From: a virus
UHGV virus genome: UHGV-0115609
Length of the DNA stretch: 34,273 nucleotides
Reading direction: 5' to 3' (one strand)
Below are positions 5,493 through 33,976 of the stretch, one piece after another. The number at the start of each line of letters is the position of its first letter. The stretch's first letter is position 1. The notes beneath the pieces were generated by a model. It saw only the letters and a list, made by a program, of their open reading frames with translations, had not been told where the DNA came from and searched no databases. The translations under genes were made by a program, and so were the position numbers.

Positions 5493-5758
5493 AAGACAGG
5501 ATTGTTGTGTAGGTTTAACCACTGTTGCCATTGGTGCCTGTTTTCACAACAAATGATTCCATACATCACATTGTATAAATTACAAAGTAGGTGCTGTCCT
5601 CAGAAACATCATCTACTTAAAGATTTTGCCTTCTACTATTGAGCGAAGTCGAAAGCGTCTGGCACTAACGAAAAGTGCAAGTAGCGGTGCGTTTCCTGGC
5701 AGAAACTAAACCGTCGCGATTGGCACTGTTGAGTAATAAATACTGGCAGTGCTGAATT

Positions 5759-5833: not shown

Positions 5834-5838
5834 ATTTA

Positions 5839-5925
5839 GGGGAGTTAGTCCGTAGGGGCAGCGGGGTAGACTGTAAATCTACTGTCATTGCGACTCGGGT
5901 GGTTCGACTCCATCACTCCCCACCA
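5839..5925 (+). tRNA. tRNA-Tyr (anticodon GTA), type II with long variable arm
   Basis: Acceptor GGGGAGT/ACTCCCC, anticodon stem GTAGA/TCTAC with loop CTGTAAA, long variable arm, T-loop TTCGACT, encoded CCA. The anticodon arm closely resembles E. coli tRNA-Tyr. Confidence 0.75.
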
Positions 5926-5929
5926 AATT

Positions 5930-6005
5930 GCCGGTTTAGCTCAGTTGGTAGAGCGCCTGCCTTGTAAGCAGGATGTCAGCGGTTCGATCCCGTTAACCGG
6001 CACCA
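5930..6005 (+). tRNA. tRNA-Thr (anticodon TGT)
   Basis: Acceptor GCCGGTT/AACCGGC, D-arm AGCTCAGTTGGTAGAGC, anticodon stem CCTGC/GCAGG with loop CTTGTAA, T-loop TTCGATC, encoded CCA. Confidence 0.8.
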
Positions 6006-6006
6006 A

Positions 6007-6095
6007 CACAACAGGTAAGAGCATTGGGCGAATCGGCGATACTGACCCACAAGCCCGTAAATCGATAGAGTCAGACCAGTGCTCTTACCGTTGTG
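6007..6095 (+). ncRNA. Long hairpin H2 starting 1 nt after the tRNA-Thr CCA
   Basis: Left arm CACAACAGGTAAGAGCATTGG (6007-6027) pairs with right arm CCAGTGCTCTTACCGTTGTG (6076-6095), with one bulge and one mismatch. Confidence 0.45.
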
Positions 6096-6145
6096 AGGAA
6101 GTGCAGCTCTTTGAAGCAACCAGAAGATAAGCATCTGGCTTCACA

Positions 6146-6228
6146 ACACAACGATAAGATCATTACGGTTAATCGTCGTTCATGTGCACAATGACTGGTC
6201 GAAAGGTAGTGATCTTACCGTTGTGGTG
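6146..6228 (+). ncRNA. Long hairpin H3, paralogous to H2
   Basis: Left arm CACAACGATAAGATCATTAC pairs with right arm GGTAGTGATCTTACCGTTGTGGTG; shares the CACAAC...GTAAGA...CGTTGTG framework with H2. Confidence 0.4.
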
Positions 6229-6369
6229 GATTCGCAGACTGATGCGATAGCTTTCTTGGATGTTAGGGAAATGCGGCCGCAAATCTTCCCTTTCGCGAGC
6301 GGTGATCGTCCGTAGTCCTAATTGGCTGCACCGTATGCCGGAGATTCAGTACCGGCCACCACAACGGCC

Positions 6370-11636: not shown

Positions 11637-11731
11637 ACAAAACAGCCTTAACGATAAGTAACCACTTACGATAGATAATGATATATTTATATAAGAAGTT
11701 GAACGCTCATTAGAAAACAAAGGAAAAACGC

Positions 11732-12967
11732 ATGACTACTACTGCACTGCAAAATGAAAAAAATCCTTCTGATTACCTTGTTTGCAAGTGGTGCGGAAAA
11801 TCATTTCACTATTTTAAGTCCCATGTAGCCAATGGTAATTGCGAGGGCATTCCTGAGTCAGTAAAAGATGCCGATCCTGACACCGTACTGAAAATGTACA
11901 CAACACAGTTTCCAGATGAGCCAACGCTATCGAAAAAGGCACTTGATGCAATTCAAGCTAAACGTGCCGAGCAAAAAAGCGAAATGGCCAAATCATCTGG
12001 CGTGACCAGTAGCCCAGGCTACACAGGCACAGTTGAGTACAAGACAGATCTGGTCGCAGCTCACGAACTGCTAAATGTAACGGTGAAAGAACTCGGAACA
12101 AAACGTGGGACGCCGCTCATGGTTAGCGTCAACGTCAATACGCCGTTTCCAGAGTTCGTTCCAGAAGTGAAGAAGGGCTACGTATATGGCGACTTCGAAC
12201 TGATCAAAGACATTTTCATGATGCTTGAACTTGGCATACCTGGCTATTTGTGGGGTCATGCAGGAACAGGCAAATCGTCATTGCCTACACAACTATGTGC
12301 TTTGCTCAATCGTCCGTTGATCCGTGCCCAACATACAGCATCAATGGAAGAGGCACATGTTACGGGGCAAATTCTGGCGCGTGATGGCTCTACGTATTTC
12401 GAGCCTGGCTTGCTTGCGCTCGCAATGAAGCATGGCTGGGTTTACCTCGCGGATGAATACGACTTTGCGTTTCCACAGATTCTTGGCGTGTATCAGCCAG
12501 TGCTGGAAGGTGAAGCGTTGGTCATCAAAGAGGCGACTCCAGAATGGCGTCGCATTACTCCGCATGAACGGTTTGCTTTCATTGGCACTGGCAACACGAA
12601 CGGATCTGGTGATGAAACCGGCTTGTACCAGGGTACAAACATCCAGAACGCCGCGAACTTTTCGCGTTTTGGCATCGTTTCGAATGTGAAATACATGAGC
12701 AAAGAGGCAGAGATCAACATGTTGATAAATGCCGGTATCGTGGATGAATACGCAGAAAAGATGGTTAAGTTTGCCGGTATCGTTCGCGATGGATACGAAG
12801 AACACCTTATCAGTCAGCCAATTGGCCCTCGTGAACTTTTGTTGTCGGCCAAGATTGGAATGATGCGAGGCGACTTTGTGACAGGTATTGAGCGTTCTTT
12901 CATTAACAAACTCCCTTCAGCTTCTGCACAAGCGGCTCGTGAAGTTGTTCAAAAAATATTTGGTTGA
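11732..12967 (+). CDS. AAA+ ATPase, MoxR/CobS-like
   Basis: Walker A GHAGTGKSS, Walker B-like VYLADEYD, sensor region FIGTGNTNG; paired with the upstream vWA gene. Confidence 0.8.
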   Translation: MTTTALQNEKNPSDYLVCKWCGKSFHYFKSHVANGNCEGIPESVKDADPDTVLKMYTTQFPDEPTLSKKALDAIQAKRAEQKSEMAKSSGVTSSPGYTGTVEYKTDLVAAHELLNVTVKELGTKRGTPLMVSVNVNTPFPEFVPEVKKGYVYGDFELIKDIFMMLELGIPGYLWGHAGTGKSSLPTQLCALLNRPLIRAQHTASMEEAHVTGQILARDGSTYFEPGLLALAMKHGWVYLADEYDFAFPQILGVYQPVLEGEALVIKEATPEWRRITPHERFAFIGTGNTNGSGDETGLYQGTNIQNAANFSRFGIVSNVKYMSKEAEINMLINAGIVDEYAEKMVKFAGIVRDGYEEHLISQPIGPRELLLSAKIGMMRGDFVTGIERSFINKLPSASAQAAREVVQKIFG

Positions 12968-18605: not shown

Positions 18606-19037
18606 GTGAACACTGATATTTTTTCTAAAATCATGGCCGATCTGGAGTTCGACCGCGACAACCTTGAGGAAGTATGGCGTAAACAGCCACGGCTTTTAAT
18701 GGAGTATGGGTCAAAACTAGCGCAGGCAGATCGAGATGTCGCAGAGGCAAAACTTAACCTTGAAGCTGTTGAAGCAAAGCTATACGACACAGAGCGTAAG
18801 AACTTGAGTATGAACGGCATTAAGTTCAACGAGTCTGTACTGGACGCTAAGGTTAAAACAAACCCACAGTATCTGTCTAAACGGCAGAAGTTGGATGAAG
18901 CACGGCACATCGCAGACATATACAAACATGCTGTCGCCGCCTTTTCGCATCGCCGAGACATGATCGTTCAGGCGTCAAAGATGGCCATCGTTGAATTAGA
19001 GCGATTAGGCTCTGAACGCTTTATTACTCCCCGTTGA
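18606..19037 (+). CDS. Hypothetical protein (143 aa), possibly a UvsY-like recombination mediator
   Basis: GTG start with AGGAAC upstream. The gene sits directly before the gp32-like SSB, FEN and RecA genes; the role is suggested by position and size only. Confidence 0.45.
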   Translation: MNTDIFSKIMADLEFDRDNLEEVWRKQPRLLMEYGSKLAQADRDVAEAKLNLEAVEAKLYDTERKNLSMNGIKFNESVLDAKVKTNPQYLSKRQKLDEARHIADIYKHAVAAFSHRRDMIVQASKMAIVELERLGSERFITPR

Positions 19038-19154
19038 TTTTTGATAGATAATAAGTAAGTACTGATCTATCATTTAACAGCTCGAAAGAGCCACGAATGA
19101 ACGAAAGCCCAACGCGCATAGCGCCATCGGCCAAATCACAACAAGGAGAAACAC

Positions 19155-20183
19155 ATGTCTAAGACATTACTTGATTTGCTTAACAAAACTCGTGAAGACA
19201 TTGCCGCCAAACGTGGCAACAACGTTGATCTGACTCGCTTAAAAGACGGCGTCAACTATATCCGCATCTTCCCGAATAAAGACGACCCAAACGGTAAGTT
19301 CTTCCAGACTTTCGGTATGCACTACGTTAAGTATCAGAACGAGGAAGGTAAAGAAGCAACCAACGCTTATATTTGTGAGCAACATACTCACGGTCGCGCT
19401 TGTCAGCTATGCGAAATGGTGATGGAAGGTCGCGCTCGTCACAAGGGTAACAAAGCAATGGAAGAACGCATCGGTCAAATGCGTGCCACTCCTCGCTACC
19501 TGGTCAACGGCATTCTTTCTGCTCGTGAGGATTTCGCAGATGCTGAGAAATGCCAGTTAATCGAGCTGCCGTCTACTGTATTCGATGATATCTGCAAAGC
19601 AATCACCGAAGACATCGCTGATGATATCGGCAATCCACTGAGCAAAGAGGAAGGCTACGCATTCCTGATTAAACGTACTGGCTCTGGTCGCGATACCAAA
19701 TATGACGTCTCGCCTAAGCGTAAAGTCTACAAAGGCGATATCGAAGATAAATTCTGGAACACCCAGCATGATCTGATCGCATACGCAAATCAGGCTGATG
19801 AAACTCGTCTTCTGTCGACAGTTCGCACTATGGGTCGTCTGATTGGCATCGCTGCACCAACTGCCGCAGCATCTGCACCAGCAATTTCCTCAACCGCGAA
19901 AACATCGGCTGCGGCACTACCTGGATTTGGCTCTGTCACTGGTCATACAGAAGGAGCGACGGCTGTAGCAACCGCGCACACACCGGCTTCTGAACCAACC
20001 AGTCTGGTTGATGAAGAAATCCTCCGTGCCGTTGAAACTGAATTTAAACCAGAGGCAAGTTCCGCTGCCGTTGCCGTATCAGTCAAAGAGTCTGAAGCAG
20101 TCGCAGCGACATCTGTAGCAACCGCATCTGCGACGGAAGATGAAGGTCTGGATGACCTACTGAGAGAGCTGGACTCTCTGTAA
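19155..20183 (+). CDS. Single-stranded DNA-binding protein, T4 gp32-like
   Basis: NGVNYIRIFPNKDDPNGKFF resembles the gp32 N-terminal core; zinc-binding-like CEQHTHGRACQLC; Ala/Ser-rich linker and acidic C-terminal tail (EDEGLDDLLRELDSL) as in gp32. Confidence 0.65.
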   Translation: MSKTLLDLLNKTREDIAAKRGNNVDLTRLKDGVNYIRIFPNKDDPNGKFFQTFGMHYVKYQNEEGKEATNAYICEQHTHGRACQLCEMVMEGRARHKGNKAMEERIGQMRATPRYLVNGILSAREDFADAEKCQLIELPSTVFDDICKAITEDIADDIGNPLSKEEGYAFLIKRTGSGRDTKYDVSPKRKVYKGDIEDKFWNTQHDLIAYANQADETRLLSTVRTMGRLIGIAAPTAAASAPAISSTAKTSAAALPGFGSVTGHTEGATAVATAHTPASEPTSLVDEEILRAVETEFKPEASSAAVAVSVKESEAVAATSVATASATEDEGLDDLLRELDSL

Positions 20184-20200
20184 TCCCATTACGTGACCAG

Positions 20201-20230
20201 TAAGGCGTCTACGGACGCCTTACTTTTTGG
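20201..20230 (+). terminator. Rho-independent terminator after the SSB gene
   Basis: AAGGCGTC-TACG-GACGCCTT followed by ACTTTTTGG. Confidence 0.75.
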
Positions 20231-20243
20231 AAGGAATGTACCG

Positions 20244-21188
20244 GTGAATTATCTCTTCGTAGATGGCAATAGCCTGGGTTATTACCACCAACAATCTGAC
20301 AAATTGCACAACGGCGAAATGGAAGTACAGGCTGCTTTCGGCTTTGTTAAGAACGTCCGTCGTTATGCCTCCATCCTCCATGCCCGACCTATGATTCTTT
20401 GGGATGGATTTAGTGACAAGCGTCGCGACTTTTACCCGGACTACAAAGCAAATCGCGACGACGATCCTGATATGAAAAAGATGAAGGAAGGCTTTGCTAT
20501 CCAGAAGCCATACATCCTCAAAATGATGACCGCGCTTGGAGTTACCCAACTCATTGCAAAAGATGCAGAAGCGGATGATCTGGCCGGGCTGCTGGTATCC
20601 CGCATGGCACCGCAGCCAACCGTTGAACACATCTATCTGTTAACAGGCGATAGCGACTGGCTTCAGTTAGTTCGTGAAAACGTAAGCTGGGTAAGCCTGC
20701 GTGAAGACGCCAAAAACAAGCAGGTTAATTTTGAGCAATTTGCGGAGCTGACAGGATTCGCCACGCCTCGCGCATTTTTGGAAGCAAAAGCATTACAAGG
20801 CGATAAATCGGACAACATTAGCGGTGTTGGTGGCATTGGTGCTGGCGGTGCGAAAGAGCTGCTGCATGAATGGGGAAGTGTCGCAACGATGGTACGCGGC
20901 ATCAACGACGGCTCAATCGTGGTTGACAAAGGACGCCATAAGACCGCCTTCAACAAACTAGCGAAGAATGCCTTCAACGAGAAAACAGGCTGTCGAATGC
21001 TCGAAGCGTTCAAGAGAAACATCACGCTAATGAACCTGATTGAGACGAAGTTTCCGCCTACCGAAATCGAAACAATCAAAAGCAATCGTGACGTGAAAGC
21101 ATTCGAGCAACTGTGCTACGAGCTGAATTTCCGTTCGTTCCTTGAAGACCTTGAAGTGTTTGTTCTTCCATTCGAAAGGTATTGCTAA
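20244..21188 (+). CDS. 5'-3' exonuclease / flap endonuclease (RNase H-like, FEN family)
   Basis: N-terminal YLFVDGNSLGYY, acidic clusters ILWDGFSD and AKDAEADDLAG, and the H3TH-like region GDKSDNISGVGGIG. Start set to GTG 20244 (RBS GGAAGGA) because the longer ORF would read through the terminator hairpin. Confidence 0.85.
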   Translation: MNYLFVDGNSLGYYHQQSDKLHNGEMEVQAAFGFVKNVRRYASILHARPMILWDGFSDKRRDFYPDYKANRDDDPDMKKMKEGFAIQKPYILKMMTALGVTQLIAKDAEADDLAGLLVSRMAPQPTVEHIYLLTGDSDWLQLVRENVSWVSLREDAKNKQVNFEQFAELTGFATPRAFLEAKALQGDKSDNISGVGGIGAGGAKELLHEWGSVATMVRGINDGSIVVDKGRHKTAFNKLAKNAFNEKTGCRMLEAFKRNITLMNLIETKFPPTEIETIKSNRDVKAFEQLCYELNFRSFLEDLEVFVLPFERYC

Positions 21189-21454
21189 TGCTTAAATCGA
21201 TTATTAATGGCGCTACAACCACCCCCACCCAACTGGCAAAAGAGATTGTCTTTTATCGCGGTGAGTACGCTGTCATCGCACTGCCGTCAATTCTAGGCGC
21301 TGCCGGAATGAAAGCGACAGATCGCGAGTTTGGATTAGTCAGCGAGCAGGTCGTAAAAATCCTCGCTCGTGTATCCAGACTCCTTAATCACGATGCGATT
21401 GTATTCGACGAATCCGCCGCTTTAAAACGAATCAACGAAACAAAAGGAGCCTGA
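21182..21454 (+). CDS. Hypothetical protein (90 aa)
   Basis: ORF overlapping the FEN stop and ending 2 nt before the recA start. Confidence 0.5.
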   Translation: MLMLKSIINGATTTPTQLAKEIVFYRGEYAVIALPSILGAAGMKATDREFGLVSEQVVKILARVSRLLNHDAIVFDESAALKRINETKGA

Positions 21455-21456
21455 TC

Positions 21457-23796
21457 ATGGCAAAAGGAAAATCCGCACTGGCACTTGCTCTGAAAAAGAA
21501 AATCGGTAGCAACGACGAAATTCAGAAAGTAACTCATTGGATTGACACAGGCTTTCCTCCGTTAAACAAAGCTATTTCCGGTCGTTACGATGGCGGTTTC
21601 CCATGTGGTCGTATCGTAGAAGTATTCGGGCCACCAAGCGCGGGGAAATGTGTTACCGCAGACACCATGCTGCTGACGGAGCGTGGAATGGTAACAGTGA
21701 AAGAACTGTTTGAGATTGAGGGGCACAAAGCAACATGCACTACTCGCGATGTAGAGCATAACGTTGGACTCATCAATGAAAATGGCGTGATAGAGAAGAC
21801 CTCACACCTGACATGGAACAACCGTCGCAAATTCAAGCGTATTAAGCTGGCATCAGGCGGTTATATCGAGGCTACGTTCCGTCACCCAATCCGTGTGGTT
21901 GACGACTTAGGTAATGTCGTCTGGCGACATGCTGAAAAAATCAGTGTAGGCGACACGATTCCTTCAATGGTTGGCACACATCAATTCGGCGATCAGCACC
22001 TGGATGCCAATATCGCAAAACTGATGGGCTATTTAATTGCTGACGGATACGTGGCCTCTGAAAATTCAGTGAATTTTTCTAACACAGATCCTTTCATCAA
22101 GGATGAGTACTACCGCCTCATTTCGCTGGTATCAGACAAGATGCCAGTTACGAGAAAACATAACGGCTCGGAAGACCATGTGCTGTTTAGCAAAGAGGTG
22201 CGTTCGCTGCTTTTTAAAGAGTATGGTCTGGAGTATGAGAAAGCTGCTGGCAAGCAGGTTCCGTTGAGTGTGCGTCGCGCCAATAGCGAGGCTCAAATTG
22301 CATTCCTTCGCGGCTACTTTGAGCTGGAATGCCACGTCAATGATGGTCGCTGCATTGAGGTTGTGAGCGCGAGTGGGCTGCTGCTACAGCAAATTCGCCT
22401 CATGCTCCTGAATCTGGGGATTACGTCAACTATCTCTGAAAAACACGTCGCGGGTTATGAAAATACATATTACCGGCTGTCATTCAGTGGCTCTAATTAC
22501 GACCTTTTTCTGTCAACGATTGGTTTCGAATCTCCGGCACGTTTATCAGTGGCAACCAAACGGGACATTGGTTTTGACCGCACTTACTCAGGCTATGTTC
22601 CGCACATCAGCGGCTTAGTGAAATCACTCTACGAGTCGCTCACCAAGACCACCCGTGAAGACTACGCTCTGGTAGACCACGTTATTGGCCGCGGCGATCG
22701 TGTCGGAATAGACAAACTGCGAGAAATCTATGTCTCCTTCATTGGCAGAAAGAATCGTTTTAACGAGCATCTGTTTGCACAACTGGCAGCGGTAATTGGC
22801 TCTAACTTGTTCTACGACGAAGTCGTGGCTATTGAGGAAGGTGAAGCACCAACGTTCGACGTAGCGATGCCGGAAACACACTCTTTCTGGTCTAACGGGA
22901 TTATCAGCCACAACACATTCCTTGCAACAGCAGCGATGATCTCCGCTCAAAAACAAGATGGTCTGGCGGTATTCCTCGATCATGAAAACAGTTTTGACGT
23001 TGGCCTGGCTGTAGCCAATGGCCTGAACGCAGATGAGGATGACGGTCAGTGGGTATACAAGCAGCCAGATACCTTCGAAGACTCTGTAGAGTTGATCGGC
23101 ACAATACTTAAATTGGTTCGTGATGAAGAGCTTATCCCCGAATCAGCACCTATCTGTATCGTGGCTGACTCTCTTGCGTCTATGGTTCCGAACTCCAAAG
23201 CCGAGAAGTTCGAAAAGATGGCTGAAGGCACTGCCAAAGACAAAGATCAGCTAAACATGAACGACAATACGGCACTGGCTCGTGCGACGAGTGCGAACTT
23301 CCCTACTCTGGCTTTGTGGGCACGCAAATACAACGCCTGCATCATCTTCTTGAATCAGGTTCGCACAAAAATCGGTGTAATGTTTGGCGACCCTACTACG
23401 TCGCCAGGTGGAGATTCACCGAAGTTTTACGCTTCTGTGCGCATCCGTCTCGGTGCATCGGTGATGAAGGATGGGAAAGAGAAGATCGGCCAGGACGTAG
23501 GCGCAGAATGCATCAAAAACAAAGTTGCACCACCGTATGGCAAATGCACCTGGAAATTCTACTTCGATCCTACTCGTGGCCTCGACGTTATCGAGTCGCT
23601 CGTCGAGTACATGCTGGAAGAAGGATACCTGCCAAAGAACGCCAGCGGGCGAGTTGAAATTGGTGACAAGAAATACACCAAATCGCAGATCGTCGACATG
23701 TATCGGGAGAAGCCATTAGCAGAAATCATTGCTGCGTTACAGGCGATAGATGACCGACGAGAGAAGACATCACCAACAGAAGAACTAGAAGATTAA
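21457..23796 (+). CDS. recA: RecA-family recombinase precursor containing an intein
   Basis: N-extein ...PCGRIVEVFGPPSAGK and C-extein TFLATAAM...AVFLDHENSFD...QPDTFEDS...IFLNQVRTKIGVMFGDPTTSPGGDSPKFYASVRIRL are near-colinear with bacterial RecA. The P-loop GPPSAGK/T is split by a 422-aa insertion. Confidence 0.9.
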   Translation: MAKGKSALALALKKKIGSNDEIQKVTHWIDTGFPPLNKAISGRYDGGFPCGRIVEVFGPPSAGKCVTADTMLLTERGMVTVKELFEIEGHKATCTTRDVEHNVGLINENGVIEKTSHLTWNNRRKFKRIKLASGGYIEATFRHPIRVVDDLGNVVWRHAEKISVGDTIPSMVGTHQFGDQHLDANIAKLMGYLIADGYVASENSVNFSNTDPFIKDEYYRLISLVSDKMPVTRKHNGSEDHVLFSKEVRSLLFKEYGLEYEKAAGKQVPLSVRRANSEAQIAFLRGYFELECHVNDGRCIEVVSASGLLLQQIRLMLLNLGITSTISEKHVAGYENTYYRLSFSGSNYDLFLSTIGFESPARLSVATKRDIGFDRTYSGYVPHISGLVKSLYESLTKTTREDYALVDHVIGRGDRVGIDKLREIYVSFIGRKNRFNEHLFAQLAAVIGSNLFYDEVVAIEEGEAPTFDVAMPETHSFWSNGIISHNTFLATAAMISAQKQDGLAVFLDHENSFDVGLAVANGLNADEDDGQWVYKQPDTFEDSVELIGTILKLVRDEELIPESAPICIVADSLASMVPNSKAEKFEKMAEGTAKDKDQLNMNDNTALARATSANFPTLALWARKYNACIIFLNQVRTKIGVMFGDPTTSPGGDSPKFYASVRIRLGASVMKDGKEKIGQDVGAECIKNKVAPPYGKCTWKFYFDPTRGLDVIESLVEYMLEEGYLPKNASGRVEIGDKKYTKSQIVDMYREKPLAEIIAALQAIDDRREKTSPTEELED
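21649..22914 (+). mobile_element. Intein (class 1) with LAGLIDADG homing-endonuclease domain, inserted in the RecA Walker A motif
   Basis: Begins with Cys (CVTADTMLL, block A), has a TxxH block B (ATFRHP) and ends ...HSFWSNGIISHN followed by Thr (+1). Internal LAGLIDADG motifs KLMGYLIADGYV and FLRGYFELECHV. Removing it restores GPPSAGKT. Confidence 0.85.
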
Positions 23797-24093: not shown

Positions 24094-24924
24094 ATGAAGA
24101 AAGGTTTACTTGCAGTTGCTCTGGCGGCTATTTGCACAATGGGTCTTACTGGCTGCGATCGCGTGGAGCCTGGATACGTTGGCATCAAAGTAAACAAATT
24201 AGGTGAAGACAAAGGGATTGGTGAAGTGGTTGGCGTTGGTCGCCAATGGACAGGTCTTAACACCGAACTTTACGTATTCCCGACCTTCAAACAAATGAAG
24301 ACCTACGACGAGCCGTTCACATTCCAGATGAGTGACGGTACTGCTATTGGTCACAAAATTGGCGTTGCGTATCTGGTTAATCGTGACAAGGTAACGACGG
24401 TGTTCCAGACCTATCGCAAAGGCGTAGACGATATCACCGAATCAGATCTGCGTCAGAAAATTGCCGACTCTCTAAACCGTTTGGCCAGCCGTATGACCAC
24501 TGACTCATTTATCGACGGTGGTAAGGCACAATTGCTGGACAACGCACTGAAAGATATTCAGAAAGAGATGTCTCCGGTTGGTATTGAGGTACTGAGCCTG
24601 TCATGGGTTGGAAAGCCTGATTACCCAAAAACTGTCATTGAATCTATTAACGCCAAAGTAACGGCTAACCAGCGTACTCTGCAACGTCAGCAGGAAGTCG
24701 AACAGCGTAAAGCTGAGGCGAATATGCTACGTGAACAGGCTAATGGTGAAGCTGATGCTATCCGTGCTCGTGCGCAAGCAGAAGCAGACGCCATTCGTCT
24801 GCGCGGTGAAGCTCTGCGTCAAAACCCGAACGTTATGGAACTGGAAGCCATCAATAAATGGAATGGCCAGTTACCGCAGTACATGACTCAAGGGGCTAAC
24901 ACTCCTTTCATTACAGTGAAATAA
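24094..24924 (+). CDS. SPFH/band-7 (stomatin/prohibitin-like) domain lipoprotein
   Basis: Lipoprotein signal with lipobox LTGC; C-terminal Ala/Glu-rich helical region REQANGEADAIRARAQAEADAIRLRGEALRQNPNVMELEAINKW typical of SPFH proteins. Confidence 0.65.
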   Translation: MKKGLLAVALAAICTMGLTGCDRVEPGYVGIKVNKLGEDKGIGEVVGVGRQWTGLNTELYVFPTFKQMKTYDEPFTFQMSDGTAIGHKIGVAYLVNRDKVTTVFQTYRKGVDDITESDLRQKIADSLNRLASRMTTDSFIDGGKAQLLDNALKDIQKEMSPVGIEVLSLSWVGKPDYPKTVIESINAKVTANQRTLQRQQEVEQRKAEANMLREQANGEADAIRARAQAEADAIRLRGEALRQNPNVMELEAINKWNGQLPQYMTQGANTPFITVK

Positions 24925-28821: not shown

Positions 28822-29466
28822 ATGGATCTAAAACGCACGCGCTGGGTTCGTCGTCTTGAGGACGGCTCCTACACTATCGAATCAAATTCCAACCTGAATA
28901 AGCAGAAGTTGCTTTGTGACATCTGCGGTATAGCGGCGAAGTGCCCGATCTACGAAACCAGAATTAAACTTGATAAGGCTGGTGTGAATTTTCATTTAAA
29001 CAGTTGCATCAGGTACGTTCCATTGCTCGCATTTCGTAAACCGATCATCGGATTGGATGCACCCTACTTCAACACACTCCGTTCAGGTGTGACGTGGCAA
29101 GATCGTTTATCACCAGACAAGCTGATTTGCCTTGTATCCGCAGACACAGGGAAAATCATCCGTTTTGGGAAAGTAGACAAGGTTTACTCAGGCCCAGTAG
29201 ACGAAATGTTGCGGAAACACAGCCGGTTTAATCATCTCTGTATGGGTGGTGAGAAAATCGAGAAGGTAGAAGAAGTGATCCGCAAATCCTACGGACACTT
29301 CCTGACCAAAGATAGCCTGCTCACCGCAATCTACATCAGACATGTAAAACGTGAGTTCGACCTCGAATACCACAGTGAAGAAGAGCTTAACCTTGTTGAC
29401 CCACGTCCAAAAGCTGGCGTCATAAGCATAAACGCAGCGCGTAAAAAGCCCACTGAGACGTTTTAA
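28822..29466 (+). CDS. Hypothetical protein (214 aa)
   Basis: Long ORF just beyond the origin region; no motif recognised. Confidence 0.55.
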   Translation: MDLKRTRWVRRLEDGSYTIESNSNLNKQKLLCDICGIAAKCPIYETRIKLDKAGVNFHLNSCIRYVPLLAFRKPIIGLDAPYFNTLRSGVTWQDRLSPDKLICLVSADTGKIIRFGKVDKVYSGPVDEMLRKHSRFNHLCMGGEKIEKVEEVIRKSYGHFLTKDSLLTAIYIRHVKREFDLEYHSEEELNLVDPRPKAGVISINAARKKPTETF

Positions 29467-29541
29467 ACGTAATCTCAGGGTTTAACCGAGGCATAAAATA
29501 TGGTGCATTAGAAAGACACTGAGGGCTTTTAGGATTAATAC

Positions 29542-29983
29542 ATGAGTGAATTTTATTCAAGGGCAGCAACTGTGACAGACATGCCTTTTATCATGGCTGA
29601 GTTCGAGGACGGCGCACGCAAAGGTCACTTCTACGAAGAGATCCTCACATCAAAGGGGGGGGTAAAACCTTTGAGCAGCAGACCAGACTGGCAATCAAGA
29701 CGAACGAGCGGGGCCAATACTCCGGGCATTTTATCTACATCCTGCTGCATCGTTCTGATGACAAAAAGTAGGACTAATCTGGTTCTGTGCCGCACTCGAT
29801 CCGACTGGCGCACCTTGACTTGAACTCCGTGCCGTCAGTATTGTCAAAGAGCTTCGCGGAAAAGGCTATGGGTCAATGCTGGTGTCCGACATGATCGCAT
29901 CAAACCCTAGTCAGCCGATGATGGCAAAGTGCTACGTCAAATCCTCGCAAATGGCCGACATGCTGTTTCGCGACCCAAAATAA
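29542..29983 (+). pseudogene. GNAT-family N-acetyltransferase, disrupted (at least two frameshifts plus an in-frame TGA)
   Basis: Frame 1 from ATG 29542 through a G8 tract (29655-29662); protein-like sequence continues in the -1 frame (KTFEQQTRLAIKTNERGQYSGHFIYILLHRSDDKK) to an A5 tract (29763-29767), then in the +1 frame (VGLIWFCAALDPTGAP, TGA at 29816, then LELRAVSIVKELRGKGYGSMLV... with the GNAT motif A R-G-x-G-x-G) to the stop at 29981-29983. Confidence 0.55.
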
Positions 29984-30014
29984 AAAGCACCCCATACGAG
30001 GTGCTCCTGAAGAA

Positions 30015-30518
30015 TTAATCACAAGTCGTTTTGCCCGTGCCGTCTGGGTACACGATTGATTCGCACGACTTGCCATTCAAGAAGCTGTAGCTGCGAATAG
30101 TACCGTCCGGATCGCGTTCTGTGTAAGACTCCAGCTTCTTCGGATCAGCGTTCTTACGGCGCACTTCTTTCAGCTCATATTGGGCCTTGTACATCTCCTT
30201 GTAGGCTTCCTCTATGCGTTTCATTTTGATCTCCTTTGCCTCTTTGCTGCCCAGATAAGCGGCCATTTCAAGATCACAGTTGAACCTGATTTTTGGGAAT
30301 GAAGGCGCGTATCTACCCATGACTTTGGTTAAATCATTGTCGTTAGAGACATAATAGGCATGGCTTCCACACAATTTGTCGGCTCTGTCTTGGGCAATTG
30401 CTACGCTTGAAGTGGAGTAAATATCAACGTACCCGCCAGCTGACTTTTCATCTTGAGGTGGTTTTGGTACGCATCCGATCAGAGCAATGGCCATCGTCCC
30501 TATAATTACGCGTTTCAC
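30015..30518 (-). CDS. Hypothetical lipoprotein (167 aa)
   Basis: GTG start with GGAG RBS; signal peptide with lipobox ALIGC; convergent with the GNAT pseudogene across the hairpin AGCACC...GGTGCT (29986-30007). Confidence 0.6.
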   Translation of the reverse strand: MKRVIIGTMAIALIGCVPKPPQDEKSAGGYVDIYSTSSVAIAQDRADKLCGSHAYYVSNDNDLTKVMGRYAPSFPKIRFNCDLEMAAYLGSKEAKEIKMKRIEEAYKEMYKAQYELKEVRRKNADPKKLESYTERDPDGTIRSYSFLNGKSCESIVYPDGTGKTTCD

Positions 30519-30744
30519 CGTCAGTTCTCCTTTTTCGTTTGGTTGTCATCATTAAGTGACTGCGATTATAGAGTGGCTTGTAACATCTAGAAGTCTTTGC
30601 TGTCCATAAAAATAGGTATTCACTTACCTATGAATTTGCCATAATCATGTGTCTGTGAACATTCTTAATGGCCGTGTTATCTGGATTGTTCGCCTCTCAA
30701 ACACACTTAATATCTGTATCAAAATAACCACAAAGGAAAAACAC

Positions 30745-31830
30745 ATGACTTTGCCATACGGCGTCATTTCTGACTGCCACTACCACAAATGGGATGCGTT
30801 CTCCACGACGAACGCTGAGGGGCTTAACTCCAGACTTGAAATACAGTTGGAAGCAACGAAAGAAGCAGCCATCGCCATGAAGAAGGCCGGTTGTAAGTAC
30901 ATGTTGGTTGCCGGTGATACATTTCACGTCCGAGGAACTGTGTCCCCTTCTGTTTTGCATTACGTAACTGAAACGTACAAGTGGATTATCAACGAGCTTG
31001 ATCTGACAGTAGTAATGCTGGCCGGTAATCACGATCTTGAAACCAACGATTCAGTATATAGCGCCAACGCAGCAGCATCGCTGAGTTCTATCGGCGTGGT
31101 AATCGTATGTGGCAAGCGCCCACACTCAATAAAAATTGGTGATGTGACTGTCCACCTGATTAGCTGGCGTAACAATCATGCGGAGCTTATCAGCGATCTG
31201 AAAGCATTACGTAAGAGCGTAGAAGGTGACAATCATGACGTTGTTATCCATACATCCATTAACAAAGCCATTCCAACAATGCCTGACGTCGGTATCGATG
31301 CGCAGGAGTTAAAGGATATCGGCTTTCGTCTCGTGCTTAGTGGGCATTACCACAACCACAAAGAGGTCATTCCTGGAGTTATCAGTGTCGGTGCACTGAC
31401 TCATCAAAATTGGGGAGATGTTGGATCTCTGGCTGGCTACATGATCGTAAACCCGGACGGCAGTTTCAGTCACTACGAAACCAGTGCGCCTAAATTCATT
31501 AACCTGGAAGATGATGTTGCTGATGACCAAATTCGCGGCAACTACGTGCGTTTCCGCGCCGTAATTGAGAACGATGAAGAAGGCATTAAGTACCAGAACA
31601 TCCTCAAAACAATGGGTGCAAAAGGTGTCGTGTGCAACTTCATCCGTAAGTCATCAATGATGGAAGGGACAGCCAGCACAACTGAAACCAGCAAAATCGA
31701 TAGCCTGGGAGAGTCGGTATCTGCTTATTGCAAGATTGTCCACGATACTGACGGCGGATTTGATCTGAGCAAATTGGATATTTTGTGTCAGGAAATCCTC
31801 ACCGAAGCGGAGAGTTCGGAGGCTGTGTGA
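30745..31830 (+). CDS. sbcD: SbcD/Mre11-like nuclease (calcineurin-like phosphoesterase; T4 gp47 analogue)
   Basis: Phosphoesterase motifs DCHYH, AGDTFH, AGNHD and SGHYHNH in the canonical order. Start at ATG 30745 with the conserved CCACAAAGGAAAAACAC context. Confidence 0.85.
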   Translation: MTLPYGVISDCHYHKWDAFSTTNAEGLNSRLEIQLEATKEAAIAMKKAGCKYMLVAGDTFHVRGTVSPSVLHYVTETYKWIINELDLTVVMLAGNHDLETNDSVYSANAAASLSSIGVVIVCGKRPHSIKIGDVTVHLISWRNNHAELISDLKALRKSVEGDNHDVVIHTSINKAIPTMPDVGIDAQELKDIGFRLVLSGHYHNHKEVIPGVISVGALTHQNWGDVGSLAGYMIVNPDGSFSHYETSAPKFINLEDDVADDQIRGNYVRFRAVIENDEEGIKYQNILKTMGAKGVVCNFIRKSSMMEGTASTTETSKIDSLGESVSAYCKIVHDTDGGFDLSKLDILCQEILTEAESSEAV

Positions 31831-32063
31831 AGCAAAGTCGTTATGGGAGCTTTCGAGACTTTGCCATCGCGATGAAAAGACTTGAACGAGGCCAGACGGT
31901 GATGTTTCACAAGCCCTACCCGCCACAAGGAAATCCCGTAGCGTTTTATCTTGGAAGGTTAACAAGAAAAGGCGTATTGAGGCGCAGATCCTTCCCGGCG
32001 CATACGGAGTTCAGATTGAAAGAAGGCCAAAAGCTAACACACGGTATCAGAGGTGTTATATGA
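31827..32063 (+). CDS. Small basic hypothetical protein between sbcD and sbcC (start uncertain)
   Basis: ORF bridging the two nuclease genes, overlapping the sbcD stop and the sbcC start; possible GTG start; Arg/Lys-rich. Weak evidence. Confidence 0.3.
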   Translation: MKQSRYGSFRDFAIAMKRLERGQTVMFHKPYPPQGNPVAFYLGRLTRKGVLRRRSFPAHTEFRLKEGQKLTHGIRGVI

Positions 32064-33976
32064 AGTTTTTAAAGCTCCAGGTTGAGAATTTTATGGCTAT
32101 CGCCAGCGCGGAGGTCGAGTTAGATCAGCGTGGTTTAGTGCTCATTCAGGGTGTTAATAGTGATGATAGTTCCGCATCAAGTAATGGCGCTGGTAAATCT
32201 ACTTTGATGAACAGCCTGATGTGGTGTCTGTATGGCGAAACTGCGCATGGAGTCAAAGGTGACGACGTGCTGTCTACAGGCTACGAGAAAAACTGTCGTG
32301 TAATGGTGACTGTTGAGGATGAAGGCAAGAGATACGCGATCATTCGTCACCGTAAACACAAAGAGTTCAAGAACCGGCTGATCGTCCGCGGTGAAGACGG
32401 TGACATGACCAAAGGCAAGGACACGCTGACGCAGGAGTTCGTTGAACGCCTGATTGGTGCATCGAAAGAGGTGTTCATGGCGTCCATCTACGCCAGTCAG
32501 GAAGCAATGCCAGATCTACCTGGAATGTCCGACAAAAACCTCAAAACCATCGTAGAAGAAGCCGCTGGCGTTGACAGACTGACACGCGCCTACGCTATTG
32601 CTCGTGAACGAGCTAACGCAGCTGCCGCACGTATGGACGTGGTTAAAACCAAATTGGAGTCGACAATCTCGACCATTGAGGCAACACAGTCAGAAATTGA
32701 GTCAGCGAAAGCCTCCTCTGAATCATGGGAGCAAGAGCGTTCTAAACGTTATGACGATGCCCTGGCTGGGCTGGCCAGTGCCGAAGTTGAGTTAACGGAA
32801 GTTGAACTTGAGATCCGCACTCTTCCCGAACAGATACGTGATACCGAGAAGGCAATCGAAAGTGAGCGCAAAAAGTTAGCCTCAAAAGAAGAACATGACG
32901 CCAAGTTGCTCAAAGTTCGTGGTGCGATAACTGATATTCGGGCAAGCATCAAAGCTACAGAAAATAGTCAGGCTGATGCAATGAACCGCGCGCGTAATTT
33001 TAAGACCAAAGCAGAAGAGGTTGGTACTAAAGTGGGATCACCATGCCCTACTTGTGGCAAAGCCTACTGCGAAGAAGATCTATCAACGGTGAAGGAGAGT
33101 TTCATTGAACAAGCACGTCAGGAAATTGGTCAGGCGAAGACACTTGCAGAGGCAATGGCTAAACACAAAACGAATCTTGAGAAAGCGTTAAGCATTGAGT
33201 CTGCCCTTGTTAAAACGACACCTGATGTAACGGCTATCATTGCCCGGATTGAAGAGCTTACGAAACAACTCTCATCTTTGCGTCATCGTGAGAAGGAGGT
33301 TGTTGCTATTGAGTCTCTTGTGACTCGTGCTCGTACTGAGGTCGATCGTATATCAAAAGAGATTAATCCGTTTATTGCTCTTATCGCCAGACACGAAGAT
33401 AACCTGGTATCCAGTAAGTCTACCTTAAAGTCCTTAAAAGATGAGTTGAAGGCTATTAAGGAACAAACGTTGCTATTGGAAAAAGCTCGTCAGGTCTACT
33501 CTCCTGCCGGGGTGCGTTCTCATATTTTGACGTCTGTTACGCCTTTCCTGAATACACGCACTGCCGAGTATCTCAATACGTTGTCTGACGGGAATATTAC
33601 TGCTGAGTGGTCGACGATGGATACCACTAAAAAAGGTGAGTATCGCGACAAATTCAACATTAGTGTGCAGAAGAAAGGTTCAAGTAAGTCGTTCCAAACC
33701 CTCTCTGGTGGTGAGAAGCGGAAGGTTCGCATTGCGTGTTCTTTGGCATTGCAGGATCTGGTTAGTAACCGGGCGAGTAAAAACATCGATTTGTTTATCG
33801 GCGACGAAATTGACGATGCACTCGATACAGCCGGTCTTGAACGCCTCATGGGTATTCTGGAGTCCAAAGCTCGCGAGCGAGGTACTGTGCTGATTATCTC
33901 CCATAAAGAGATGAAGTCATGGTTCCGGGAAACTATTACGCTGGAAGTTAAAGAGGGGCGCAGCTATGTCGTTTAA
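32060..33976 (+). CDS. sbcC: SbcC/Rad50-like ATPase (T4 gp46 analogue)
   Basis: N-terminal Walker A NGAGKST, central coiled-coil region with CxxC zinc-hook-like SPCPTCGK, C-terminal ABC signature LSGGEKRKV and Walker B LFIGDEIDDALD. Confidence 0.9.
   Translation: MKFLKLQVENFMAIASAEVELDQRGLVLIQGVNSDDSSASSNGAGKSTLMNSLMWCLYGETAHGVKGDDVLSTGYEKNCRVMVTVEDEGKRYAIIRHRKHKEFKNRLIVRGEDGDMTKGKDTLTQEFVERLIGASKEVFMASIYASQEAMPDLPGMSDKNLKTIVEEAAGVDRLTRAYAIARERANAAAARMDVVKTKLESTISTIEATQSEIESAKASSESWEQERSKRYDDALAGLASAEVELTEVELEIRTLPEQIRDTEKAIESERKKLASKEEHDAKLLKVRGAITDIRASIKATENSQADAMNRARNFKTKAEEVGTKVGSPCPTCGKAYCEEDLSTVKESFIEQARQEIGQAKTLAEAMAKHKTNLEKALSIESALVKTTPDVTAIIARIEELTKQLSSLRHREKEVVAIESLVTRARTEVDRISKEINPFIALIARHEDNLVSSKSTLKSLKDELKAIKEQTLLLEKARQVYSPAGVRSHILTSVTPFLNTRTAEYLNTLSDGNITAEWSTMDTTKKGEYRDKFNISVQKKGSSKSFQTLSGGEKRKVRIACSLALQDLVSNRASKNIDLFIGDEIDDALDTAGLERLMGILESKARERGTVLIISHKEMKSWFRETITLEVKEGRSYVV

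What the first reader, a model, noticed from the sequence alone, without database searches (positions are those of the whole stretch)
21649..22914. LAGLIDADG intein splitting the Walker A P-loop of a RecA homologue
The RecA ORF is 779 aa, far longer than a typical bacterial RecA. The excess is one 422-aa insertion that starts with Cys right after GPPSAGK and ends with HN followed by Thr, so excision would restore GPPSAGKT. It has intein blocks A, B and G and two LAGLIDADG motifs (LIADG and a variant FELEC). Placement in the nucleotide-binding loop means the recombinase must be inactive until splicing. The second LAGLIDADG motif lacks the terminal Gly, so endonuclease activity may be impaired.
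Basis: partly seen in the sequence, partly recalled or inferred. Interest (0 to 1): 0.8.

Follow-up and report, generated by a model that had tools for sequence, protein, structure and literature searches.

The report
Mobile intein in phage-plasmid recombinase P-loop
The recombinase gene of this E. coli phage-plasmid is interrupted, exactly inside its ATP-binding loop, by a self-splicing protein element that carries its own DNA-cutting enzyme; this is a well-known kind of selfish element, here apparently still spreading between related plasmids of gut bacteria.

Summary
ORF 21457-23796 (+) encodes 779 aa. Residues 65-486 (nt 21649-22914, 422 aa) start with Cys, end with His-Asn and are followed by Thr. 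Removing them restores GPPSAGK|TFLATAAM, the exact sequence of intein-free homologues (SSU5, CMS-2020a and others).

Profile searches, a confident AlphaFold model and a fold search all identify a class-1 intein with a nested two-motif LAGLIDADG endonuclease. The extein is a phage RecA/UvsX-type recombinase, split between the equivalents of E. coli RecA K72 and T73. The literature already calls this the "classic" P-loop intein site.

- The acidic residue of motif 2 (E227) is kept.
- The Gly-to-Cys/Ser variant is conserved in relatives only 41-47% identical.
- dN/dS is 0.15-0.25.
- Intein DNA is 97-99% identical across plasmid lineages whose exteins are 76-86% identical (dS about 0.08 against 1.2-1.9).
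- All 35 copies share junction-proximal synonymous markers that intein-free alleles lack.

The intein occurs in 248 PLSDB plasmid records, against 690 that carry the recombinase. RefSeq already labels orthologues "intein-containing recombinase RecA". It is a real but ordinary new member of a known kind. Splicing and cleavage are inferred, not shown.

The parts
21457..21648 (+). N-extein of the RecA/UvsX-family recombinase (aa 1-64). It ends in GPPSAGK, the first seven residues of Walker A.
   Evidence: It aligns to E. coli RecA GRIVEIYGPESSGK. It is identical in length to the N-terminal part of intein-free homologues.
21649..22914 (+). Intein, 422 aa (precursor aa 65-486): a class-1 splicing (HINT) domain split by a nested LAGLIDADG homing endonuclease.
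   Evidence: Pfam Intein_splicing and LAGLIDADG_3. TIGR01445 and TIGR01443. AF2 model with pLDDT 80.2 and pTM 0.84. Foldseek top hits are TliVMA intein 7qss (E 4e-19, TM 0.68), PI-PfuI, PI-PkoII and PI-SceI. Absent from six homologues.
21649..21687 (+). Intein block A (CVTADTMLLTERG). Cys1 is the nucleophile for the N-S acyl shift.
   Evidence: C1 is invariant in 34 of 34 full-length copies.
21856..21897 (+). Intein block B (GGYIEATFRHPIRV) with the TxxH motif (T76, H79).
   Evidence: T76 and H79 are invariant and conserved in distant relatives.
22015..22053 (+). Block C, the first LAGLIDADG motif (AKLMGYLIADGYV). D132 is the putative catalytic acid.
   Evidence: It aligns to LGYLIADG of the TliVMA intein. 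It is not among the variable positions in 35 copies.
22243..22278 (+). Block D (AAGKQVPLSVRR), with the conserved Lys202-x-Val-Pro.
   Evidence: K202 is invariant and P205 and R209 are invariant across distant relatives.
22297..22338 (+). Block E, the second LAGLIDADG motif (IAFLRGYFELECHV). E227 is the putative catalytic acid, and C228 replaces the usual Gly.
   Evidence: It aligns to AFINAYIVCDGYY of 7qsu, with E on D and C on G. Relatives read YMELECH, YMELESS and YLELECS.
22378..22437 (+). Block H (LLLQQIRLMLLNLGITSTIS), the most conserved stretch of this intein family.
   Evidence: L253, L254 and G257 are invariant. This pattern retrieved the viral relatives.
22849..22914 (+). Blocks F and G (PTFDVAMPETHSFWSNG-IISHN). 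D404 and H411 lie in block F. His421 is penultimate and Asn422 is terminal, for succinimide formation.
   Evidence: All are invariant in 34 copies. TIGR01443 is above its cut-off.
22915..23796 (+). C-extein (aa 487-779 plus the stop codon). It begins with Thr+1, the last Walker A residue and the nucleophile for trans-esterification. It carries Walker B (ICIVADS) and the L2-loop region (NQVRTKIGVMFGDPTTSPGG).
   Evidence: Alignment to E. coli RecA 3cmu. Pfam RecA.
21642..22922 (+). Mobile unit as seen in populations: the intein plus about 7 nt upstream and about 8 nt downstream of co-converted extein. The junction reads GCG GGG AAA | ACA TTC CT. The empty form of this site in intein-free alleles is the presumed homing site.
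   Evidence: All 35 intein-containing alleles share these bases. Intein-free alleles of each lineage instead have GCA, GCT or GCC, then GGT, then ACG or ACC, and TTT TTG in Eh65 and SSU5.

Best explanation
This is a canonical class-1 intein of 422 aa with a nested double-motif LAGLIDADG homing endonuclease. It sits in frame between the invariant Lys and Thr of the Walker A loop (GPPSAGK|T) of the RecA/UvsX-type recombinase of an SSU5-like E. coli phage-plasmid.

The gene is translated as an 86.6-kDa precursor whose ATP-binding loop is split by 47.5 kDa of foreign protein. The precursor is therefore presumably inactive. The intein then removes itself in four steps:
1. Cys1 makes the N-S acyl shift, assisted by the block-B residues T76 and H79.
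2. Thr+1 attacks the thioester.
3. Asn422, assisted by His421, cyclises and releases the intein.
4. An O-N shift restores GPPSAGKT in a 39.1-kDa recombinase.

The freed intein, or the precursor, acts as a site-specific endonuclease on intein-free alleles of the same gene when two related phage-plasmids meet in one cell. Repair of the break from the intein-containing copy installs the intein together with fewer than about 10 nt of flanking extein. This is homing.

Shown here: the anatomy, the exact empty site, the fold, the conservation of all catalytic residues, and the population signature of recent lateral spread. Inferred: splicing itself, inactivity of the precursor, and cleavage activity.
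For: - **Exact boundaries and restored Walker A:**
- **Profile matches above curated cut-offs:** intein N- and C-terminal regions, the splicing domain, LAGLIDADG_3 and RecA.
- **Fold:** the AF2 model (pLDDT 80.2) is most similar to solved endonuclease-containing inteins, namely TliVMA, PI-PfuI, PI-PkoII and PI-SceI.
- **Precise empty site:** six homologues lack the 422 aa and read GPPSAGK|TFLATAAM.
- **Site in RecA numbering:** the spliced extein aligns to E. coli RecA with GPPSAGKT on GPESSGKT.
- **Intein and extein divergence disagree:** intein DNA is 97.2-98.7% identical between this copy and Klebsiella- and Enterobacter-lineage copies, whose N-extein, C-extein and upstream 1.2 kb are 76-86% identical. 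Intein dS is about 0.08 against extein dS of 1.2-1.9. For Klebsiella p4727 against Enterobacter FUJ80066, intein dS is 0.003 and extein dS is 1.2.
- **Co-conversion:** junction-proximal synonymous markers travel with the intein in all 35 copies examined.
- **Purifying selection:** dN/dS is 0.10-0.25 overall and 0.15-0.25 in the endonuclease region.
- **Intact copies:** 34 of 35 copies are 422 aa and one is 420 aa. None has a stop codon. None of the catalytic positions is among the 36 variable positions.
- **Prevalence:** the intein is in 248 PLSDB plasmid records, and the recombinase is in 690.
- **Same site in distant relatives:** inteins at 30-48% identity occupy the same K|T site of other RecA-family proteins.
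- **Literature:** the K|T position is called the "classic" P-loop intein insertion (PMC5050341). The P-loop intein of P. horikoshii RadA compromises ATPase activity before splicing (PMC8529194).
Against: - No experiment shows splicing, precursor inactivity or DNA cleavage for this intein.
- The second LAGLIDADG motif ends in Cys instead of Gly. This is unusual and could lower activity.
- Only about 25-35 substitutions separate the intein variants, so the dN/dS estimates are coarse.
- Lateral spread with short conversion tracts could in principle come from ordinary recombination between co-resident plasmids.
- The model has low-confidence loops at residues 135-142, 166-175 and 310-312.
Confidence: 0.9

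Rival explanations
1. The intein still splices but its endonuclease is dead. Its patchy distribution would then reflect vertical descent plus ordinary homologous recombination between co-resident phage-plasmids, not endonuclease-driven homing.
For: Motif 2 reads FELEC and lacks the terminal Gly. Endonuclease decay is common in inteins, and three distant relatives (P0007, P0012, P0013) have clearly lost both motifs. These plasmids encode a full recombination module that could move segments without a targeted break.
Against: Both catalytic acids (D132, E227) and the block-D Lys are invariant in 35 copies. The C/S variant of motif 2 is conserved in relatives at 41-47% identity that keep both motifs. 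dN/dS is 0.15-0.25 in the endonuclease region. The transferred segment ends within about 10 nt of the insertion point on both sides, in three extein backgrounds that are only about 80% identical. That pattern is expected for break-initiated conversion and is unlikely for unguided recombination.
Confidence: 0.12
2. The intein has been co-opted as a post-translational switch. Splicing would be conditional, for example triggered by ssDNA, DNA damage or redox state, so that the recombinase is activated only during lytic replication or stress. Its high prevalence would then reflect benefit to the plasmid.
For: It lies in the catalytic loop of a recombinase, like the P. horikoshii RadA intein, whose splicing is environmentally controlled (PMC4760082, PMC5790916). 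Conditional splicing is reported for the M. tuberculosis RecA intein (PMC11377839). The intein has four Cys residues (1, 30, 228, 235), and the N-extein has Cys50 at position -15, so disulfide control is conceivable. The intein is in 123 Escherichia plasmid records, against 189 that carry the recombinase.
Against: Nothing in the sequence data tests conditionality. About two thirds of related plasmids do without the intein, including every Yersinia record found (0 intein records, 63 recombinase records) and nearly every Salmonella record (1 and 42). The intact endonuclease and the homing signature are fully explained by selfish spread.
Confidence: 0.1
3. The 422 aa are a non-splicing native insertion or a gene fusion, or the gene is a pseudogene, and the 87-kDa protein is the final product.
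For: RefSeq names many copies simply "LAGLIDADG family homing endonuclease" and PHROGs lists the family (phrog_9666) as of unknown function.
Against: All splicing residues are present and invariant. The insertion is precisely absent from orthologues. It would leave the Walker A Lys and Thr 422 residues apart. The extein is under very strong purifying selection (dN/dS about 0.01), which makes sense only if a functional recombinase is produced.
Confidence: 0.02

Closest known systems
"Classic" P-loop inteins inserted between the Walker A Lys and Thr/Ser, such as mycobacteriophage TerL1-a inteins and many bacterial and archaeal ATPase inteins (Kelley et al. 2016, PMC5050341; Novikova et al. 2016, PMC4760082)
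   Same: The insertion point is identical within the motif (GxxxxGK|T), with Thr+1 as nucleophile, and it occurs in a phage-borne ATPase. Distant relatives of this intein recovered from viral contigs sit at GK|T of terminases, helicases and clamp-loader-like ATPases.
   Different: The host protein is a RecA/UvsX-type recombinase of enterobacterial phage-plasmids, not a terminase or helicase. Sequence identity to those inteins is only 20-30%.
Pyrococcus horikoshii RadA intein (PDB 4e2t)
   Same: It is an intein in the P-loop of a RecA-superfamily recombinase. The precursor's ATPase is compromised until splicing (PMC8529194). The HINT domain is structurally similar (Foldseek E 1e-4, 21% identity).
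   Different: Pho RadA is a 172-aa mini-intein without an endonuclease, from an archaeal hyperthermophile. The present intein is full length with an apparently active LAGLIDADG domain and is mobile among mesophilic plasmids.
Mycobacterium tuberculosis RecA intein PI-MtuI and the M. leprae RecA intein
   Same: They are LAGLIDADG-type inteins interrupting a RecA. RefSeq uses the same product name, "intein-containing recombinase RecA", for orthologues of this gene.
   Different: The insertion site differs. In the NF007072 model the mycobacterial intein lies after about position 253, and here it lies at the P-loop, about position 72 in E. coli numbering. Scores are far below the family cut-off (99.9 and 24.6 bits against 1024). 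The splicing domains are only remotely similar (2in9, E 2e-3).
Thermococcus litoralis and P. horikoshii VMA inteins, PI-PfuI and PI-PkoII (PDB 7qss, 7qst, 1dq3, 2cw7)
   Same: They are the best structural and sequence matches: a HINT domain with a nested two-motif LAGLIDADG endonuclease.
   Different: They are archaeal, sit in other host proteins, and are 14-21% identical. Their second motif ends in the usual Gly.
Intein-free SSU5-family recombinases (Salmonella phage SSU5 gp60 AFL46987.1, E. coli CMS-2020a, Yersinia pestis pMT1 and others)
   Same: The extein is orthologous at 83-98% DNA identity, sits in the same gene neighbourhood, and has the same length of 357-358 aa once the intein is removed.
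   Different: They carry the empty homing site.

Membership tests
Class-1 intein (HINT splicing domain) | Cys, Ser or Thr at intein position 1 | tested here: met
   Cys1 at nt 21649-21651. It is invariant in 34 copies.
Class-1 intein (HINT splicing domain) | Block B TxxH motif | tested here: met
   T76-F-R-H79 in GGYIEATFRHPIRV. It is invariant and T/H are conserved in relatives.
Class-1 intein (HINT splicing domain) | C-terminal His-Asn followed by a Cys, Ser or Thr +1 residue | tested here: met
   H421-N422|T. TIGR01443 scores 16.9 bits against a cut-off of 15.6.
Class-1 intein (HINT splicing domain) | In-frame insertion precisely absent from orthologues, whose removal restores a conserved host motif | tested here: met
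   Six intein-free alleles read GPPSAGK|TFLATAAM.
Class-1 intein (HINT splicing domain) | HINT fold | tested here: met
   Pfam PF14890 scores 46.5 bits against a cut-off of 35.8. The AF2 model matches solved inteins, including the mini-inteins 4oz6, 1am2 and 4e2t.
Class-1 intein (HINT splicing domain) | Autocatalytic protein splicing demonstrated | not testable with these tools
   This needs expression followed by western blot or mass spectrometry.
LAGLIDADG homing endonuclease (intein-nested, two-motif) | Two LAGLIDADG helices, each carrying a catalytic Asp or Glu | tested here: met
   LIAD132G and FELE227C. PF14528 scores 65.7 bits against a cut-off of 22.5, with two stretches.
LAGLIDADG homing endonuclease (intein-nested, two-motif) | Terminal Gly of each motif, which packs at the helix-helix interface | tested here: not met
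   Motif 1 has G133, but motif 2 has C228. The C/S variant is conserved in relatives at 41-47% identity, so it is a trait of this clade and not a sign of decay.
LAGLIDADG homing endonuclease (intein-nested, two-motif) | Endonuclease-domain fold like PI-PfuI, PI-SceI or I-DmoI | tested here: met
   Foldseek gives 7qss TM 0.68, 1dq3 TM 0.60, and I-DmoI TM 0.60 when normalised to the target.
LAGLIDADG homing endonuclease (intein-nested, two-motif) | Site-specific cleavage of the intein-free allele, and homing | tested here: inconclusive
   Cleavage cannot be tested here. The population signature of homing is strong: the discordance between intein and extein divergence, the co-conversion tracts, and a presence/absence polymorphism.
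RecA-family recombinase (extein) | RecA domain with Walker A, Walker B and the L2 loop | tested here: met
   PF00154 scores 145.6 bits against a cut-off of 27 on the spliced sequence. The alignment to E. coli RecA covers GPESSGKT, VIVVDS and [20 protein letters not shown].
Bacterial RecA proper (TIGR02012 equivalog) | Score above the equivalog cut-off | tested here: not met
   It scores 153.6 bits against a cut-off of 325.3. The best PHROG is phrog_97, UvsX-like recombinase, at 1.6e-91. It is a phage-type RecA homologue that sits next to a gp32-like SSB.
Mycobacterial-type intein-containing RecA (NF007072) | Same insertion site and a model score above the cut-off | tested here: not met
   It scores 99.9 bits (extein) and 24.6 bits (intein) against a cut-off of 1024. 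The intein lies at model positions 305-514, after the extein part 32-253, whereas here it follows aa 64.
"Classic" P-loop intein insertion (K|T of Walker A) | Intein lies between the invariant Lys and the Thr/Ser of GxxxxGK[TS] | tested here: met
   GPPSAGK|C...HN|T. The definition is from PMC5050341.

The most novel reading that the evidence does not exclude
The intein may be more than a parasite. Because it sits in the catalytic loop of the phage-plasmid's own recombinase, splicing could be conditional (DNA damage, ssDNA or redox) and could gate recombination-dependent replication at the switch from plasmid to lytic life. Alternatively, its endonuclease could act as a competition weapon that breaks the recombinase gene of intein-free rival phage-plasmids entering the same cell. 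Either role would help to explain why about two thirds of the Escherichia records of this plasmid family carry it.
Probability: 0.12. Interest if true: 0.6.

Novelty: new member of a known kind. Interest (0 to 1): 0.33.

Why it matters
The biology itself is textbook: an intein with a homing endonuclease in a P-loop ATPase.

Two things give it modest value.
- It is an apparently active homing system in easily handled E. coli, Klebsiella and Enterobacter phage-plasmids. Natural intein-plus and intein-minus alleles differ by almost nothing else (98% extein identity between this window and CMS-2020a or WEM25). Few bacterial inteins offer such clean material for measuring homing, co-conversion and any fitness effect in the native host.
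- Public annotation is inconsistent. The same gene is called "RecA", "LAGLIDADG family homing endonuclease", "hint domain-containing protein", "hypothetical protein", "intein-containing recombinase RecA", and a PHROG of unknown function. The paper describing phage Cyrano does not mention the intein. A correct description would tidy the annotation of several hundred plasmids, many from clinical isolates.

Tried and rejected
1. I first took the window to be phage Cyrano (OV696614.1), because the recombinase gene is 100% identical, and I fetched that record's annotation. Translation errors and a direct comparison showed otherwise. The window is a close relative, collinear in blocks at 97.8-99.3% identity, with indels and an extra segment of about 1.25 kb. 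The Cyrano annotation coordinates are therefore valid only around the recombinase gene. No exact source was found in the phage or plasmid collections.
2. The scan of genome contigs with the intein alignment failed because no stretch was conserved enough. I did not repeat it.
3. In one search I printed residue counts at wrongly indexed LAGLIDADG positions (130, 131, 224, 226, 227). The correct positions (D132, G133, E225, E227, C228) are absent from the complete list of 36 variable positions in the same output, so they are invariant.
4. Literature searches for intein with SSU5, phage-plasmid or UvsX, and for a RecA intein in Klebsiella or E. coli plasmids, found no description of this intein. 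The Cyrano paper has no occurrence of "intein".
5. I considered and rejected a class-3 intein, because Cys1 is present, and a bacterial intein-like (BIL) domain, because the canonical His-Asn and +1 Thr and a precise empty site are present.
6. Base composition gives no sign of foreign origin. Intein GC is 0.483 and extein GC is 0.487.
Full report
**1. The observation**

The window holds one long ORF on the + strand, 21457-23796, encoding 779 aa. GPPSAGK occupies aa 58-64. The next residue, Cys65, begins at nt 21649. The tripeptide Ser-His-Asn ends at aa 486, nt 22914, and is followed by Thr. The inserted block is therefore exactly 422 aa at exactly the reported coordinates. Deleting it gives a 357-aa protein with an intact Walker A motif, GPPSAGKT. 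Calculated masses are 86.6 kDa for the precursor, 47.5 kDa for the intein and 39.1 kDa for the spliced product.

**2. What the parts are**

Profile matches for the insertion and the extein:

| Sequence | Model | Result |
|---|---|---|
| 422 aa | Pfam LAGLIDADG_3 | 4.7e-18, two stretches |
| 422 aa | Pfam Intein_splicing | 4.4e-12, spanning residues 9-422 |
| 422 aa | NCBIfam intein_Nterm, intein_Cterm | both above curated cut-offs |
| Spliced extein | Pfam RecA | 2.6e-42, one continuous stretch |
| Spliced extein | phrog_97, UvsX-like recombinase | 1.6e-91 |
| Spliced extein | TIGR02012, bacterial RecA equivalog | 153.6 bits, below the cut-off of 325.3 |

The Intein_splicing match spans residues 9-422, so the splicing domain is itself split by the endonuclease, as in all endonuclease-containing inteins.

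The extein is therefore a phage-type RecA homologue and not a cellular RecA. Against solved structures it aligns best with E. coli RecA. GRIVEVFGPPSAGKTFL lies on GRIVEIYGPESSGKTTL, and the Walker B and L2 regions are conserved. The intein thus sits between the equivalents of E. coli RecA Lys72 and Thr73.

All eight intein and endonuclease blocks can be placed:
- A: Cys1
- B: T76xxH79
- C: LMGYLIAD132G
- D: K202-Q-V-P
- E: YFELE227C
- H
- F: D404 and H411
- G: H421-N422

An AlphaFold2 model built on a small alignment of relatives is confident (mean pLDDT 80.2, pTM 0.84). Its best structural matches are full-length inteins with homing endonucleases: TliVMA 7qss (E 4e-19, TM 0.68), PI-PfuI, PI-PkoII and PI-SceI. 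Mini-inteins, including P. horikoshii RadA and M. tuberculosis RecA, match the splicing domain, and I-DmoI matches the endonuclease domain.

**3. Source and surroundings**

The recombinase gene is 100% identical to that of Escherichia phage Cyrano, which is plasmid pLF82 of E. coli LF82. The window as a whole is only a close relative of that element: 97.8-99.3% identical in collinear blocks, with indels. It is an SSU5-like phage-plasmid.

The gene sits in a T4-like recombination module:
- a gp32-like SSB at 19155-20183 (PF08804, 1.7e-66)
- a 5'-3' flap exonuclease at 20193-21188
- a conserved 90-aa ORF at 21182-21454 with no family match
- the recombinase
- an SPFH protein at 24094-24924
- SbcD- and SbcC-like proteins at 30649-31830 and 32060-33976

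**4. The empty site**

It fails clearly.

Six homologues lack the block precisely and read GPPSAGK|TFLATAAM: Salmonella phage SSU5, E. coli CMS-2020a and WEM25 p1, Klebsiella 1825-KPC53 and pJN2-26, and Enterobacter Eh65. Their proteins are 357-358 aa.

In PLSDB the spliced extein sequence finds 690 plasmid records, and the intein sequence finds 248:

| Genus | Records with intein | Records with recombinase |
|---|---|---|
| Escherichia | 123 | 189 |
| Klebsiella | 71 | 268 |
| Enterobacter | 41 | 89 |
| Salmonella | 1 | 42 |
| Yersinia | 0 | 63 |

Among 5,426 complete E. coli genomes, 120 carry the intein, always on a plasmid and never on the chromosome.

**5. Is the endonuclease impaired?**

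The evidence points the other way.

- **The catalytic acid is present.** E227 aligns with the Asp of the TliVMA intein's second motif, and C228 aligns with its Gly.
- **The variant is a clade trait.** Relatives only 41-47% identical that keep both motifs read YMELECH, YMELESS and YLELECS. Relatives that really have lost the endonuclease (P0007, P0012, P0013) look quite different.
- **Copies are intact.** Among 35 copies, made of 7 from phage and plasmid records and 28 from viral contigs, 34 are 422 aa and one is 420 aa. None has a stop codon. None of the catalytic residues is among the 36 variable positions.
- **Selection is purifying.** dN/dS between the diverged intein variants is 0.15-0.25 in the endonuclease region.
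- **The intein is much younger than its hosts.** Compared with this window, the intein DNA of Klebsiella- and Enterobacter-lineage plasmids is 97.2-97.3% identical. The N-extein (79-86%), the C-extein (83-86%) and the upstream 1.2 kb (76-80%) are far more diverged. Synonymous divergence is about 0.08 in the intein and 1.2-1.9 in the extein. Between a Klebsiella and an Enterobacter copy it is 0.003 against 1.2.
- **The transferred segment ends within about 10 nt of the insertion point.** All 35 intein-containing alleles read GCG GGG AAA | ACA TTC CT at the junction. Intein-free alleles of the same lineages instead have GCA, GCT or GCC, then GGT, then ACG or ACC, and in Eh65 and SSU5 also TTT TTG.
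- **Tract length varies.** In this window the upstream identity with the Enterobacter-lineage intein-containing alleles extends to -24. In PhiR41_1 it stops between -7 and -10. This suggests separate conversion events, or later recombination, within the E. coli lineage.

This is the classical footprint of endonuclease-initiated homing with short co-conversion tracts. It does not prove cleavage. It does make an inactive endonuclease the less likely reading, which I put at about 0.12.

**6. Mechanism**

*Shown:* the residues and fold required for the standard four-step class-1 pathway, and an insertion point that separates the phosphate-binding Lys from the Mg-coordinating Thr of Walker A by 422 residues.

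*Inferred from established intein chemistry:*
1. N-S acyl shift at Cys1.
2. Trans-esterification by Thr+1.
3. Asn422 cyclisation assisted by His421.
4. O-N shift to give GPPSAGKT.

*Inferred by analogy:* the precursor lacks ATPase and strand-exchange activity. This is reported for the P-loop intein of P. horikoshii RadA (PMC8529194, citing Topilina et al. 2015).

*Inferred from the population data:* the intein's endonuclease cuts the empty allele when two related phage-plasmids share a cell, and repair copies the intein in.

From my own knowledge, not tested here: such repair needs a recombinase. The element therefore resides in a gene of the very pathway that can propagate it, as PI-MtuI does in mycobacterial recA.

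**7. Comparison with what is known**

[quoted passage not shown] About 70% of inteins lie in ATP-binding proteins, and RecA (56 inteins) and RadA are listed hosts (PMC4760082).

Relatives recovered here fit that picture.
- Inteins 45-48% identical lie at the same site of SSU5-type recombinases on other viral contigs of about 100 kb (L042, L043).
- Inteins 30-47% identical lie at GPE[SG][SG]GK|C...HN|TT of other RecA proteins (all carry the Pfam RecA domain). One of them is on a 550-kb contig (P0007).
- More distant ones (20-30%) mostly lie at GK|T of terminases, helicases and clamp-loader-like proteins.

The site differs from that of the mycobacterial RecA inteins. The NF007072 model places its intein after about position 253, and scores are far below the cut-off.

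Database annotation already recognises the element in part. RefSeq WP_022649903.1, the Enterobacter orthologue, is named "intein-containing recombinase RecA". Most E. coli copies are named "LAGLIDADG family homing endonuclease", one "hint domain-containing protein", and GenBank submitters write "RecA" or "hypothetical protein". I found no paper describing it, and the Cyrano paper does not mention an intein.

**8. Verdict**

The finding is real and correctly interpreted. Only the side remark about an impaired endonuclease is contradicted by the comparative data.

It is a new member of a well-known kind, a P-loop intein in a RecA-family recombinase, and is already half-recognised by automated annotation. 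A specialist would not be surprised. Its main value is as a clean, apparently active homing system in tractable enterobacterial phage-plasmids, and as a correction to inconsistent annotation. Interest is 0.33.

Noticed in passing
window 1-34273, especially 29457-30705, 5836-6369 and 1-510: The window is not identical to Escherichia phage Cyrano/pLF82, although the recombinase gene is. It is collinear in blocks at 97.8-99.3% identity with several indels. A segment of about 1.25 kb (29457-30705) is absent from Cyrano and holds a 167-aa ORF on the minus strand (30015-30518) with a lipoprotein-like N-terminus. No exact source record was found.
   Followed up: partly
window 18606-21454 and 30649-33976: There is a T4-style recombination module around the intein-bearing gene. 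It comprises a protein annotated UvsY-like in Cyrano (no Pfam hit), a gp32-like SSB, a 5'-3' flap exonuclease, a conserved 90-aa ORF of unknown function whose first bases overlap the end of the exonuclease gene, and SbcD- and SbcC-like proteins further on.
   Followed up: partly
L004 (PhiR41_1) intein compared with window 21649-22914 and L005: The intein variants are themselves mosaic. In PhiR41_1 the N-terminal splicing region is nearly identical to the Klebsiella/Enterobacter-type intein (1 synonymous difference, against 7 to this window). Its endonuclease region is closer to this window's (4 synonymous differences against 12). This implies recombination between intein variants.
   Followed up: partly
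window 21625-21648 compared with L004, L008 and L010: The last 24 nt of the N-extein in this window match the Enterobacter-lineage intein-containing alleles, not the E. coli-lineage alleles. In PhiR41_1 and in the viral contigs L018-L020 the match to those alleles stops between -7 and -10. Co-conversion tracts therefore differ in length within one host lineage.
   Followed up: partly
loci L044-L091 (IMG/VR contigs): Of 25 distant relatives of this intein inspected in viral contigs, about 15 sit between the Lys and Thr/Ser of a Walker A motif of unrelated ATPases (terminase large subunits, DEAD/SNF2-type and RecD-like helicases, clamp-loader-like proteins). This suggests that this intein clade moves between P-loops.
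   Followed up: no
window 9528-12967: Two large genes are annotated in Cyrano as "dimethylbenzimidazole phosphoribosyltransferase" and "cobalamin synthetase". By Pfam they are a CobT-like protein with a VWA domain and an AAA_5 (MoxR/CobS-like) ATPase. This is the CobT/CobS-like pair common in large phages, so the enzyme names in the record look wrong.
   Followed up: partly
L001 (Cyrano record) 5413-5748, corresponding roughly to window 5400-5750: The Cyrano annotation places a hypothetical CDS (CYRAN_40, minus strand) directly across the tRNA-Thr and tRNA-Ser genes of a three-tRNA cluster (Asn, Thr, Ser). The CDS is probably spurious. I did not check the window itself with a tRNA finder.
   Followed up: no
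window 1-25000: A megablast of the first 25 kb hits 4,032 plasmid records, including 1,640 conjugative plasmids, and many Stx phages. That is far more than the roughly 690 SSU5-family plasmids, so some short segment of the window is a widely shared element such as an IS fragment or a toxin-antitoxin cassette. I did not locate it.
   Followed up: no
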